A stretch of DNA of 35,221 bases from Eledone cirrhosa (lineage: Eukaryota): assembly GCA_964016885.1 (NCBI GenBank), contig CAXHJY010001180.1, positions 1-35,221 on the forward strand, written 5' to 3'. Below, piece after piece: positions 5,079 through 8,652 of the stretch. The notes beneath the pieces were generated by a model. It saw nothing but the letters and a program-made list of their open reading frames with translations, searched no databases and had not been told where the DNA came from. The first letter of the stretch is position 1; every line of letters begins with the position of its first letter. Both the position numbers and the translations under genes were made by a program.

Positions 5079-5149
5079 TATTTTATCTGATGAAAACACA
5101 AATATTATTGCATGATGATGTTTGTTTTTGAAATGCGCATAATAAAATA
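5079..5149 (+). ncRNA. Type I hammerhead ribozyme (predicted cut after 5141)
   Basis: TATTTTAT-CTGATGA-long stem II (ACAAATATTATT/GATGATGTTTGT with G.U pairs)-GAAA-TGCGCA-TA-ATAAAATA. Confidence 0.85.
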
Positions 5150-5330
5150 CATGGAACTCCTTTAACCATCTTTTGTTCTTAAATATATATATATATATAT
5201 ATTAATATATATATATATATATACAGAGAGAGAGAGAGAGAGAGCCATATATCGCAAAAGAAACACAGTATATTGTATATATACCAAATCCATATTCTAT
5301 AGAAGAATATTTATTTTTATATAAATGTTT

Positions 5331-5512
5331 ATCCCGGGTTCAATCGGGGTAACCACAGTAAGTAAGGTACTCAATACATAGCAGAGTATAAATATTTAAT
5401 ATAGAAATGGCTTCTACAGGGCTAGAATTGTTTCATTCATGTGATTCCAGGCTTCCTGATGATTTCTCCCAAAGGAAACAGTTCTAATCCTGTAGAAGCC
5501 ATTTCTATATTA
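5331..5512. mobile_element. HHR-element family B copy (inverted arms 5397-5434 / 5475-5512)
   Basis: Similar to 855-995 and 14696-14851. Full HHR in right arm, half-core in left arm. Confidence 0.8.
5450..5500 (+). ncRNA. Type I hammerhead ribozyme (GUA triplet, predicted cut after 5494)
   Basis: GGCTTC-CTGATGA-TTTCTCCCAAAG-GAAA-CAG ttctaatc CTG-TA-GAAGCC: perfect 6-bp stem I, closed stem III, weak stem II. Confidence 0.8.
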
Positions 5513-5669
5513 TATATATATAACCAAAAGATTAATATGGTTCATTGATTACTCAATAAATTACAGTTTTACAATAGATTAAAAGCACTCAACAAGGAAA
5601 GTTTTACAGGAGTTTTTATATTATTCAAAATATTAATAAATGAAAAATATTCTCATAATCAAAATATAT

Positions 5670-5732
5670 GCTTTATTATATATTTCGAAGGTACTGTGTT
5701 GTTTTTTCAGTACGTCCTCGTCAGATAAAATA
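5670..5732 (-). ncRNA. Type I hammerhead ribozyme
   Basis: Minus strand TATTTTAT-CTGACGA-GGA C GTACTG..CAGTAC C TTC-GAAA-TATA-TA-ATAAAGC. Confidence 0.8.
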
Positions 5733-5807
5733 TATGATTTGATATATGACATACCGCTACGGTCTTGATAGTTCAATGCTTGTATTGGCAGTCATATATA
5801 TTTTATA

Positions 5808-5869
5808 TATTTTATCTGACGAGGACGTACTGAAAAACACAGTACCTTCGAAATATACATAATAAAGCA
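5808..5869 (+). ncRNA. Type I hammerhead ribozyme
   Basis: TATTTTAT-CTGACGA-GGACGTACTGAAAAACACAGTACCTTC-GAAA-TATACA-TA-ATAAAGCA. Confidence 0.8.
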
Positions 5870-5911
5870 TGTATTTTGGTTATGTGAATATCTTCATTTG
5901 TTAATATTTTG

Positions 5912-5974
<63 letters not shown>

Positions 5975-6016
5975 ATGATATTAAATAAATGGAAACTATA
6001 TTTATAAAACCATATT

Positions 6017-6078
6017 TATTCTATTATATATATTTCAAGGGTACCAACAATTCTGGTACGCTATCATCAGATAAAATA
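6017..6078 (-). ncRNA. Type I hammerhead ribozyme
   Basis: Minus strand TATTTTAT-CTGATGA-TAG C GTACCA..TGGTAC C CTT-GAAA-TATATA-TA-ATAGAATA. Confidence 0.78.
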
Positions 6079-6191
6079 GAAAATGTTTTATAAATATTTG
6101 ACATAACCAAGGATAATATACCTTAACGGTTCAAGTTATCCTTGGAAAGTATATTATCCTTGGTAATGTCAAATATTTATAAAACATTTTG

Positions 6192-6253
6192 TATTTTATC
6201 TGATGATAGCGTACCAAAATTGTTGGTGCCCTTGAAATATATATAATAGAATA
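6192..6253 (+). ncRNA. Type I hammerhead ribozyme
   Basis: TATTTTAT-CTGATGA-TAGCGTACCAAAATTGTTGGTGCCCTT-GAAA-TATATA-TA-ATAGAATA. Confidence 0.78.
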
Positions 6254-6393
6254 AATATGGTTTTATAAATATACTTTCCATTTATTTAATATCATTGAAT
6301 ACTTACTCCAGAAAACTGTCGAGTGCTCTGAATCAGTTATAAACATCTATATTTGTTGGATTTCCAACAAATTAAATATCTCTTCTACACACT

Positions 6394-6439
<46 letters not shown>

Positions 6440-6442
<3 letters not shown>

Positions 6443-6878
6443 GAAAGGTATAGAAAGTATTGTAGCAAGAAGCCAACAGTATCCCATAATATATAAGTGA
6501 CTATAGCGTCAAAATGGGAAAATAGTTAACGTGGAAAAATAATTCAAACTCAATTCAAAAAGAATCAGGATATAGATTTATCCAACAGAATTTAGTGAAA
6601 TCCAGGGAAAAATCAATAGAGCCTTAACTCATGATATATAAACAATGAGTTATAGGGTCCGTTGATAAGTATTCAACAGAGTTATGTTGAAAATAGTTAT
6701 GAAGCACATTTGCCCATTTTAAGTTGACCGCATAAGTTCTATTTTACGAGTATGTCACATTTTATACATCAAATATTGTATTTTGTCTGAAGAGACCATA
6801 ATATAAATTAGTATCCTTGAAATATATATAACGAAATAAATTATGAAGTTTTAGTGATATATTTTCCATTTATTACTA
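6440..6878 (+). mobile_element. Single-arm family A-related HHR element with ~340 bp upstream of the ribozyme
   Basis: Unique sequence between (TA)n tracts ending in HHR plus TTTTCCATTTATT, like the family A short arms. Confidence 0.6.
6779..6838 (+). ncRNA. Type I hammerhead ribozyme (weakened stem II)
   Basis: TATTTTGT-CTGAAGA-GACCATAATATAAATTAGTATCCTT-GAAA-TATATA-TA-ACGAAATA. Confidence 0.7.
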
Positions 6879-6890
6879 TTATATATATAT

Positions 6891-7209
6891 ACGATATATT
6901 AACAAATGGAAACTATATTTATAAAACCATATTTATTTCATTATACATATTTCAAGGACACCAAGTCAAATTATGGTGCGCTTTCATCAGATAAAATATA
7001 ATATAATCAGTTTTATAAATAAATATTGACAAACCATAATTTGACTTGGTGTCCTTGAAATATGTATAATGAAATAAATATGGTTTTATAAATATAGTTT
7101 CCATTTGTTAATATATCGTATTTTTACTCCAATAATGTGTTGAGTGCTTTATATCAGTTATAAAAATATTTGCTTGTTGTATCCCAACAATTTAAATATA
7201 ACTTCTACA
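6891..7209. mobile_element. Palindromic HHR element, family A (inverted 6891-7119; right arm truncated inside stem II; tail to 7209)
   Basis: Left arm has a full HHR on the minus strand. Right arm starts at ACCATAATTTGACTTGGTGTCCTTGAAA (~7033) and lacks CTGATGA. Confidence 0.85.
6934..6998 (-). ncRNA. Type I hammerhead ribozyme
   Basis: Minus strand TATTTTAT-CTGATGA-AAG C GCACCA..TGGTGT C CTT-GAAA-TATGTA-TA-ATGAAATA. Confidence 0.82.
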
Positions 7210-7419
7210 TCTATATATACATATATATACATACATACATACATACATACATACATTGTGTGAGCAAAGTGAGAGTGAATAAAACATTGCAAAAGTTAGT
7301 TATACAGTTTCTGTGAATGTGTGTGTGTGTGTGTGTATCAATGTCCCAATGTATTAGTGCGTGCGTGCGCGTTCATACTCCTTTGTGTACCAGTGTGTGT
7401 GTGTGTGTTTATGTGTGTC

Positions 7420-7912
7420 AGTGTATTAGTGTCTGTATGTTTCGGTGTATCACTGTATGTCTGTGTGTGTCTCTACATCTTTGTGTTTGTGTGTATGTGC
7501 GTCAGTGTATGAGTCTGTGTGTGTCAGTGTTTGGTTGTATATCTGTATGTCTGTGTATGTCTGTGTTTGTGTGTATGTGCGTCAGTGTATGAGTCTGTGT
7601 GTGTGTCTGTGTCAGTGTGTTTGGTTGTATCTCTGTATGTCTGTGTATGTCTGTTTGTGTGTATGTGTGTTTGTGTGTATGTGTGTTTGTGTGTATGTGC
7701 GTCAGTGTATGAGTCTGTGTGTGTGTCTGTGTCAATGTGTTTGGTTGTATCTCTGTATGTCTGTGTATGTGTGTTTGTGTGTATGTGTGTTTGTGTGTAT
7801 GTGCGTCAGTGTATGAGTCTGTGTGTCAGTGTCAGTGTGTTTGGTTGTATCTCTGTATGTCTGTGTTTGTGTGTGTATGTGTGTTTGTGTGTATGTGTGT
7901 TAGCGTCTGTGT
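7420..7912. repeat. GT-rich minisatellite (~80-120 bp unit)
   Basis: Recurring GTGCGTCAGTGTATGAGTCTGTGTG...TTTGGTTGTATCTCTGTATG, 4 clear copies. Confidence 0.9.
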
Positions 7913-8208
7913 GTTTTCTAGAAGGAGTTAAACCACGTGACACCGAATGGAGCCCTAGTAATGTAATTGATACTGTTATAGTGACACATACTTTTAATGG
8001 TTAATCTCCGTCGATTGCAACCATCTACCAATTGAAATACTTACTCGTTGAATTCAAGTGGTTTAGTGTTGCACTAACACGTGTACTACTAATGTAGGTA
8101 TTGTTGAAGATCATCGTCACATGGTTGTGTCTTGTCATCTGGATACACACACAAACACACTCTCTCTTTCTCTCTCTCTCTCTTTCTCTCTCTCTCTATA
8201 TATATATA

Positions 8209-8394
8209 TAGGAACGTGTAAGACCCCGACGGCTGAGCTCAAGCCGTTTCGACGGCTAATTCTGGATTAGCCGTCGAAACGGCTTGAGCTCAGCCGTCGG
8301 GGTCCTACTCGTTCCTATTACCCACTCTACTACCCTAAGTATTGAGTACTTTGGTGCGTTATGGTCCACCTGGTTCCTTACCACATTTCCTTCG

Positions 8395-8397
<3 letters not shown>
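8209..8397. mobile_element. HHR-element family C (palindrome 8209-8317 of half-ribozymes plus tail)
   Basis: GAAAC-GGCT tgagctc AGCC-GTC-GGGGTC is the 3' half of a GUC hammerhead on both arms. CUGANGA half is absent. Confidence 0.75.
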
Positions 8398-8462
<65 letters not shown>

Positions 8463-8464
<2 letters not shown>

Positions 8465-8652
8465 GATATTAACAAATGGAAACTATATTTATAAAACCAT
8501 ATTTTTTTCATTATACATATTTCAAGGACACCAAGTTACATTATGATGTGCTTTCATCAGATAAAATATAATATAGAGCAGTTTTATAAATAAATATTGA
8601 CATACCCTTAAAGAATGCAACCATTACTGTTGGAAGCTCCCGGATAGTGGGA
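8463..8652 (-). mobile_element. Single-arm family A HHR element
   Basis: Closely similar to 6891-7030, between (TA)n tracts. Confidence 0.8.
8504..8568 (-). ncRNA. Type I hammerhead ribozyme
   Basis: Minus strand TATTTTAT-CTGATGA-AAG C ACATCA..TGGTGT C CTT-GAAA-TATGTA-TA-ATGAAA. Confidence 0.8.

What the first reader, a model, noticed from the sequence alone, without database searches (positions are those of the whole stretch)
5079..8568. Unusual covarying stem II: 3 bp, C.C mismatch, then a longer helix
Seen across divergent copies, directly after CUGANGA and before GAAA: GGA-C-GTACTG/CAGTAC-C-TCC (32250) or -TTC (5808); AAG-C-GCACCA/TGGTGT-C-CTT (6934); AAG-C-ACATCA/TGGTGT-C-CTT (8504); AGG-C-ATA/TAT-C-CCT (31545); TAG-C-GTACCA/TGGTAC-C-CTT (6017); AAA-C-ACAAA/TTTGT-T-TTT (5079, C.U). 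Helix sequences change compensatorily while the position-4 pyrimidine mismatch persists, and position 10.1 is often not the usual G. Inference: selection on RNA structure, and possibly an undescribed HHR structural subtype.
Basis: partly seen in the sequence, partly recalled or inferred. Interest (0 to 1): 0.78.

Follow-up and report, generated by a model that had tools for sequence, protein, structure and literature searches.

The report
Retroelement hammerhead with kept unpaired C
These repeats are the ends of Penelope-like jumping genes carrying a hammerhead-type RNA motif predicted to cut itself, and in one large branch of them (about 100,000 copies in this genome) the motif's second stem keeps one unpaired C while the pairs around it change together, which likely marks a protein-binding or activity-damping site not found in the papers searched.

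Summary
Confirmed. All seven cited stems are in the window, which holds 12 complete motifs, mostly on arms of head-to-head palindromes. They are type I, dimer-type hammerheads (stem III is an 8-nt palindrome) in the pseudo-LTRs of Hydra-clade Penelope-like retroelements; RT-GIY-YIG ORFs lie between motif pairs elsewhere in the genome.

Genome-wide, of 83,971 motif matches, stem II position 4 is C.C in 54,836, C.U in 22,750 and C-G in 273. None of 20 subfamilies pairs it. The other eight stem II pairs are 89% paired and all covary. The mismatch marks a protein clade (100/100) whose branches share 47-59% amino-acid identity and mostly unalignable UTRs; sister Hydra families pair this position.

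The 5' C matters most; its partner is anything but G. A non-G-C first pair is already published for Hydra elements. The mismatch was not found in the papers read, but Lunse 2017 was unavailable. Function and cleavage are untested; my best guess is a protein handle that also weakens the proximal stem. The scan reported Penelope hammerheads before in shark and ray DNA, without this mismatch. New variant of a known kind.

The parts
4878..4954 (-). Hammerhead, family A (AAA-C-ACAAA / TTTGT-T-TTT, stem III ATGCGCAT); mismatch at 4934/4905; left arm of a palindrome, this arm carries the longer tail
5077..5153 (+). Hammerhead, family A; C.U at 5097/5126; right arm of the same palindrome (arms 4868-5001 / 5030-5163)
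   Evidence: 97% identical to the pseudo-LTR of full-length L040
5665..5734 (-). Hammerhead, family D (GGA-C-GTACTG); C.C at 5714/5690; stem III has lost 2 nt
5806..5873 (+). Hammerhead, family D; C.C at 5826/5846; right arm of the palindrome centred near 5790
6013..6080 (-). Hammerhead, family E (TAG-C-GTACCA; first pair U.U); C.C at 6060/6040
6190..6257 (+). Hammerhead, family E; C.C at 6210/6230; right arm of palindrome 5973-6124 / 6146-6297, tail to about 6405
6777..6842 (+). Decayed hammerhead of the B/C group (shifted stem II register)
6930..7000 (-). Hammerhead, family C (AAG-C-GCACCA / TGGTGT-C-CTT); C.C at 6980/6957
7030..7215 (+). Right arm of the family C palindrome, 5'-truncated inside stem II (no CUGANGA), with long tail
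8500..8570 (-). Hammerhead, family C (AAG-C-ACATCA); C.C at 8550/8527; solo 5'-truncated copy about 8456-8670 in (TA)n
31323..31392 (-). Hammerhead, family B (AGG-C-ATA / TAT-C-CCT); C.C at 31372/31350; left arm
31543..31614 (+). Hammerhead, family B; C.C at 31563/31587; right arm of palindrome 31276-31464 / 31471-about 31745
32246..32317 (-). Hammerhead, family D (GGA-C-GTACTG / CAGTAC-C-TCC); C.C at 32297/32273; solo copy about 32192-32372

Best explanation
The motifs are type I hammerhead folds in the pseudo-LTRs of one branch of Hydra-clade Penelope-like retroelements, predicted to cleave as dimers through an 8-nt palindromic stem III, and their stem II keeps an unpaired C at position 4 that likely serves as a handle for the element's own RT-endonuclease while weakening the three core-proximal pairs, so that cutting would need protein help. 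Shown: the fold, its covariation, the host element, the clade distribution and the absence of amplified paired variants. Inferred: that master elements were selected to keep the position open. Guessed: protein binding and gating of cleavage or ligation. The window copies are short 5'-truncated, often inverted insertions in (TA)n and are probably inert.
For: Host element: ORF P0001 lies between two direct motif copies in L040 and carries the Hydra hallmarks listed by Craig 2021; families A-D, F and J have ORFs flanked by their own motif, G has one downstream copy. Open position: C.C 54,836, C.U 22,750, C-G 273, non-C 3,245 of 83,971; 0 of 20 subfamilies paired. Parsimony changes on the 5' strand of pairs 1-9 are 6,4,3,0,3,5,3,5,6. 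Depth: clade 100/100, 47-59% aa identity between main branches; UTR scores at shuffle level in most comparisons. Family J, found through its ORF and not by a pattern, also has C.U despite a different stem III and cleavage triplet. A sequence bias C-R-Y-A follows the mismatch (C 200, R 210, Y 209, A 183 of 212), as expected of a recognition site. Natural paired copies fold 1-11 kcal/mol more stably, with pairs 1-3 formed at 0.85-0.98 against 0.29-0.89. The Anolis Penelope hammerhead cleaves only with its protein present (PMC11167929).
Against: No binding, cleavage or expression data; no RNA run could be laid. On the protein-linked tree position 7 is as quiet as position 4 (1 change each on the 5' strand), so the contrast is modest there. 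The flank tree is short and noisy. The trait arose once, so clade restriction is not independent evidence of co-evolution with the protein. One retrotransposed copy pair (L171) carries U.U. Related K-type families with the same style of stem III place their mismatch at position 3, 4 or 6, or pair position 4. Full-length copies show no pile-up of 5' ends at the cleavage site (1 of 30; 17 of 30 run through an intact upstream motif).
Confidence: 0.42

Rival explanations
1. Folding tuner without a specific partner: the mismatch only weakens stem II, to damp cleavage, shift the cleavage/ligation balance, or let reverse transcriptase pass.
For: Predicted destabilisation of pairs 1-3; weak first pair in most copies; most full-length copies were templated through an intact motif; K-type families keep a mismatch but at varying positions.
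Against: Any mismatch would do, yet the 5' base is C in 200 of 212 copies and its position is fixed across the clade; paired-stem Hydra families in the same genome are also abundant.
Confidence: 0.22
2. RNA tertiary docking site: the open C replaces the loop II - stem I contact of extended hammerheads.
For: Position 4 is where canonical 4-bp stem II ends and loop II begins (established knowledge); several families have A-rich internal loops in the extended stem I.
Against: No nucleotide is conserved at a fixed distance in either strand of stem I; stem I runs 4-8 bp before its first loop, and loop shapes differ between families.
Confidence: 0.14
3. Inherited accident, or a DNA-level element (promoter or endonuclease site) that fixes the C while the RNA simply tolerates the mismatch.
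For: Single origin; only 2-3 changes at the 3' partner, so the absence of G alone is not significant; position 7 is also conserved; minimal hammerheads need only 2-3 pairs in stem II (PMC3088659 passages).
Against: Neighbouring UTR is saturated; the other eight pairs re-pair after change (89%); a DNA-level C would leave its partner free to become G, which no subfamily did.
Confidence: 0.17
4. The feature is read on the cDNA or antisense strand, where it becomes a G.G, G.A or G.T mismatch in a hairpin bound during integration.
For: G.G, G.A and G.T are stable DNA mismatches (established knowledge); A.C pairs are not rare in stem II (53 cells).
Against: G.U exceeds A.C on the sense strand in both stems, and the core and stem III palindrome are those of a sense-strand hammerhead.
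Confidence: 0.05

Closest known systems
Hammerheads of Hydra-clade Penelope-like elements (Craig et al. 2021, PMC8557442, File S2; includes Hydra-1_oBim)
   Same: Same retroelement clade (RW, DKT, CxCX5C, no CCHH, CxxC/CxH, (TA)n targets); type I motif near the 3' end; first stem II pair often not G-C (U.U, U-A).
   Different: The Hydra rows listed there have continuous 3-8 bp stem II and a 3-4 bp stem III with a 1-3 nt loop. Here stem II is 3 bp + C.Y + 4-7 bp or more, and stem III is a loop-less 8-nt palindrome.
Minimal hammerheads of metazoan Penelope-like elements (Cervera and de la Pena 2014, PMC4209133)
   Same: Pseudo-LTR location, long stem II, palindromic stem III suited to dimers, opposite-strand pairs 100-700 bp apart, many families rich in covariation.
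   Different: Their consensus has an extra unpaired base after CUGANGA and a conserved G10.1-C11.1; neither holds here (slid register rejected). Drosophila has a one-sided bulge in helix II; two single representatives (sea urchin C.A, Clonorchis U.U) show a fourth-pair mismatch, not described as conserved.
Short-stem-III dimer hammerheads associated with Penelope-like elements (Lunse et al. 2017, PMC5785218)
   Same: Dimer cleavage through a palindromic stem III, as summarised in PMC6765202.
   Different: Paper not held; whether its alignments contain this variant is unknown.
Protein-assisted hammerhead of Anolis Poseidon PAc (Frangieh et al. 2024, PMC11167929)
   Same: Pseudo-LTR hammerhead, two 3' ends (tail), uncleaved RNA as main template.
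   Different: Penelope/Poseidon clade; its ORF starts inside the motif (here about 270 nt downstream in family A); no stem II mismatch is reported in the parts read.
Rfam hammerhead models (release 15)
   Same: Catalytic core CUGANGA...GAAA...UH.
   Different: No Rfam family reaches its gathering score in the window, and no hammerhead model appears at E<=10 on 5660-6290, which holds four copies.

Membership tests
Type I hammerhead ribozyme | Core CUGANGA, GAAA, NUH | tested here: met
   12 window copies; triplet AUA, GUC in family J. The core was part of the search patterns.
Type I hammerhead ribozyme | Stem I open-ended and paired across the cleavage site | tested here: met
   95.6% paired, 5 of 5 pairs with double-sided changes
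Type I hammerhead ribozyme | Stem II closing the core | tested here: met
   89% paired without position 4; 8 of 8 pairs covary; RNAalifold agrees
Type I hammerhead ribozyme | Conserved G10.1-C11.1 | tested here: not met
   G-C in 25 of 212 copies. Not obligatory: U.U known (PMC3088659; Hydra table).
Type I hammerhead ribozyme | Self-cleavage at NUH | not testable with these tools
   No assay. Indirect test inconclusive: 1 of 30 full-length 5' ends at the site.
Extended (loop-loop) hammerhead | Conserved loop II - stem I tertiary nucleotides or pseudoknot | tested here: not met
   No conserved base at a fixed distance in stem I; stem II continues past pair 4
Dimer-type Penelope hammerhead | Short palindromic stem III | tested here: met
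   98% self-complementary with compensatory variants; the pattern allowed RYRY, which favours but does not force this; self-duplex -2 to -10.5 kcal/mol
Dimer-type Penelope hammerhead | Published consensus with an extra base after CUGANGA | tested here: not met
   Registers slid by one give 34-41% paired against 89%
Hydra-clade Penelope-like element | Single ORF with RT and C-terminal GIY-YIG-like endonuclease | tested here: met
   P0001, 775 aa, YRDD motif and NLIYEC...TYFG; matches Hydra-1_Obim motif by motif by eye; Pfam has no hit
Hydra-clade Penelope-like element | RWK-like and DKT motifs, CxCX5C linker, no CCHH, CxxC and CxH | tested here: met
   RLRW, SDKT, CNCRIKNKC, CNLC, CLH in P0001 against the definition
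Hydra-clade Penelope-like element | Pseudo-LTRs, inverted 5'-truncated copies, tail, (TA)n targets | tested here: met
   Direct pairs in L040, L161, L162, L322; inverted pairs; ends near +100 and +190-210 from C3 followed by (TA)n
Hydra-clade Penelope-like element | Phylogenetic placement among published Hydra sequences | not tested
   Published proteins were seen only as paper text; the tree used unnamed homologues
Non-LTR retrozyme | Non-coding tandem repeats of a few hundred bases with one hammerhead per unit | tested here: not met
   Copies are inverted or solo ends of coding elements

The most novel reading that the evidence does not exclude
A protein-gated hammerhead subtype: one deep branch of Hydra retroelements built an unpaired C into stem II as a docking site for its own reverse transcriptase-endonuclease, which switches on or times dimer cleavage and re-ligation. 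It would give a single-nucleotide handle on the open question of what Penelope-element hammerheads do.
Probability: 0.3. Interest if true: 0.72.

Novelty: new variant of a known kind. Interest (0 to 1): 0.47.

Why it matters
The role of hammerheads in Penelope-like elements is unresolved: they cleave poorly alone, one needs its protein, and cleavage was dispensable for insertion in vitro. A conserved non-catalytic feature inside the motif, with natural paired mutants and paired sister families as controls, makes protein assistance directly testable. It also shows that searches requiring a continuous stem II, and Rfam models, miss about 100,000 motifs in one genome.

Tried and rejected
Rfam: no hammerhead hit; only microsatellite or hairpin noise. 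Shifted stem II register (extra base plus G10.1-C11.1): rejected. Retrozyme tandem repeat: rejected. Stem II as coding sequence: rejected for family A, whose ORF starts about 270 nt downstream. Fixed tertiary partner in stem I: not found. 5'-end pile-up at the cleavage site: not found, 1 of 30.

Expression: no RNA holder listed, which is no evidence either way.

K-type families could not be tied to an ORF. The pattern with ACRYRYGT and a short stem II was at background (514 vs 524 control). One search returned a machine error. Labels corrected: tip 'E_CC_L322' is family J (C.U) and 'H2_paired_L147' is a J-type endonuclease, not a paired-stem family. Literature searches for a C.C mismatch in hammerhead stem II found none.
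Full report
OBSERVATION. A covariance model built later finds 12 complete motifs and one truncated arm (seven window copies were in its training set). Each reads stem I - CUGANGA - stem II - GAA - 8-nt palindrome - H - stem I. Most sit on the arms of long head-to-head inverted repeats flanked by (TA)n. Rfam reports nothing at gathering level and no hammerhead model at E<=10 over four copies.

GENOME-WIDE COUNTS. The window is a whole contig of a 3.0 Gb animal genome. 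A pattern leaving stem II free gives 83,971 matches, control 0. Position 4 is C.C in 54,836, C.U in 22,750 and C-G in 273; the 5' base is not C in 3,245. In the 100 rows shown for the exceptions look like point mutants of many subfamilies, mostly C to T at CpG. The remainder, about 2,900, is by subtraction C.A or indel-shifted; C.A copies were seen in D-type subfamilies. A pattern excluding the main stem I gives 16,132 more (control 28), dominated by families whose third pair is U-A with C.C kept; 1,721 of these belong to rarer families. Hammerheads with looped stem III (26,521, control 1,092) mostly pair position 4 in the 100 rows shown and serve as an internal control.

HOST ELEMENT. ORFs with RT and a GIY-YIG-like endonuclease lie between or upstream of the motifs on the same strand. 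P0001 has RLRW, SDKT, CxCX5C, no CCHH, CxxC and CxH, the features that define the Hydra clade (PMC8557442 section 11), and follows Hydra-1_Obim motif by motif by eye. Its database homologues are 32-40% identical and essentially unnamed. Window copies are 5'-truncated roughly 25-110 nt upstream of the core and end near +100 or near +200 (tail).

COVARIATION. 257 distinct copies were extracted from genome loci; 45 central hits chosen on position 4 were dropped. In the other 212, position 4 is paired in 4. Clustering gave 20 subfamilies of two or more copies (21 singletons left out); none has a paired majority at position 4. On 20 medoids plus 7 window copies (A1), position 4 is unpaired in 27 of 27 with an invariant 5' C; stem I is 95.6% paired and the stem III palindrome 98%. 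The eight other stem II pairs are 89% paired and all show double-sided changes (score 0.853 against 0.33 shuffled, 0/500; slid registers 25-45%). The two pair-counting measures did not clearly exceed the shuffles (59/500, 373/500), and shuffles ignore relatedness. RNAalifold gives the same fold. Parsimony on a flank-only tree gives 6,4,3,0,3,5,3,5,6 changes on the 5' strand and 3,5,3,1,4,5,3,7,6 on the 3' strand (short, noisy tree). G.U outnumbers A.C on the sense strand, so the RNA sense strand is the one that folds.

DEPTH. An RT plus endonuclease tree (577 columns) joins families A, B, C, D, J, F and G at 100/100, apart from paired-stem families H and I; main branches share 47-59% identity. 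An endonuclease-only tree gave weaker support (74/98). The 310 nt of UTR upstream score at shuffle level in 25 of 28 comparisons (the J segment used was its short upstream pseudo-LTR plus flank). Family J was found through its ORF and has C.U with stem III ACAUGUGU and triplet GUC. Against: on this tree position 7 changes as little as position 4, and one copy pair (L171) has U.U. K-type families of unknown placement have U.C or U.U at position 4 in some subfamilies, but pair it in others, with a mismatch at 3 or 6.

MECHANISM. Shown: fold, host, distribution. Inferred from PMC4209133 and PMC6765202: two motifs on one transcript (direct pseudo-LTRs 3.7-4.4 kb apart in L040, L161, L162, L322) pair through the palindrome and cleave as a dimer. 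Of 30 full-length family A copies, 17 extend through an intact upstream motif and 1 starts at the cleavage site, so templates were mostly uncleaved or re-ligated, as for Anolis PAc. The mismatch lowers predicted stem II stability relative to natural paired copies (few paired copies per family) and is followed by a C-R-Y-A bias. No conserved tertiary partner is visible in stem I. I therefore favour a protein handle that also weakens the proximal stem (0.42), over a pure tuner (0.22), accident or DNA element (0.17), RNA docking (0.14) and a cDNA-strand feature (0.05). That the position is kept open by selection I put near 0.8. Palindromic window copies would pair arm to arm if transcribed and are probably inert (inference).

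PRIOR ART. PMC4209133 (main text parts 1-3 of 4, supplement parts 1-2 of 3): consensus with an extra base and G10.1-C11.1; none of 56 representatives has C.C at position 4, though two single examples have a fourth-pair mismatch. PMC8557442 (passages, section 11, supplement parts 1-2 of 59 and one search): Hydra hammerheads have continuous stem II and often a non-G-C first pair. PMC11167929 (parts 1-2 of 4). bioRxiv 10.64898/2026.07.22.740005 (part 1 of 5). Passages only: PMC6765202, PMC7229834, PMC3088659. Lunse 2017 and the Terminon paper were not held; I saw nothing of them, and their supplements may bear on novelty. Searches found no description of this mismatch. Earlier scan notes report Penelope hammerheads in other genomes without it and none in this genome.

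VERDICT. Real, selected and clade-specific: a new variant of a known kind, with function untested. Interest 0.47.

Noticed in passing
3' strand of stem I, all families (e.g. window 5141-5146 +): AATAAA lies within 30 nt after, or spans, the cleavage site in 187 of 212 copies against 4 of 212 upstream. In families A, C and D cleavage would split it. Possible poly(A) signal, or a by-product of the A-rich strand.
   Followed up: partly
window 31863-31895 (+); same motif at L406:2274: Another hammerhead-core-like motif (CTGAAGA G GTCACA loop TGTGAC GAAA) in a different repeat with a 46-nt inverted repeat (31818-31863 / 32023-32068); stem I is not evident.
   Followed up: no
L163:648, 2094 (-) and 4020, 5478 (+): A paired-stem Hydra family carries two different hammerheads 1.4 kb apart on the same strand of its 3' UTR, a ready-made dimer pair.
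   Followed up: no
G000, (L341-L370): K-type hammerheads with a very long (about 60 nt) stem II arm and ACRYRYGU stem III; the mismatch position varies by subfamily; host ORF not identified.
   Followed up: partly
window 655-700; L167 3' UTR: A core-like CAGAAGA T CCC loop GGG T GAAA in the 3' end of a sister Hydra lineage (L167, L407), possibly a hammerhead with U4 replaced by A.
   Followed up: no
window 8257-8414 / 8652-8809: Another palindromic repeat family (158-nt arms, 93%), also found in many genome loci, with no hammerhead core seen.
   Followed up: no
L042:3539 and 4066 (-): Tandem 527-bp repeat with a looped-stem-III hammerhead that has U.C at stem II position 4, although its relatives pair it.
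   Followed up: no
window 2350-2440 (+): Decayed 3' half of another copy (GAAA changed to CAAA, core lost).
   Followed up: no
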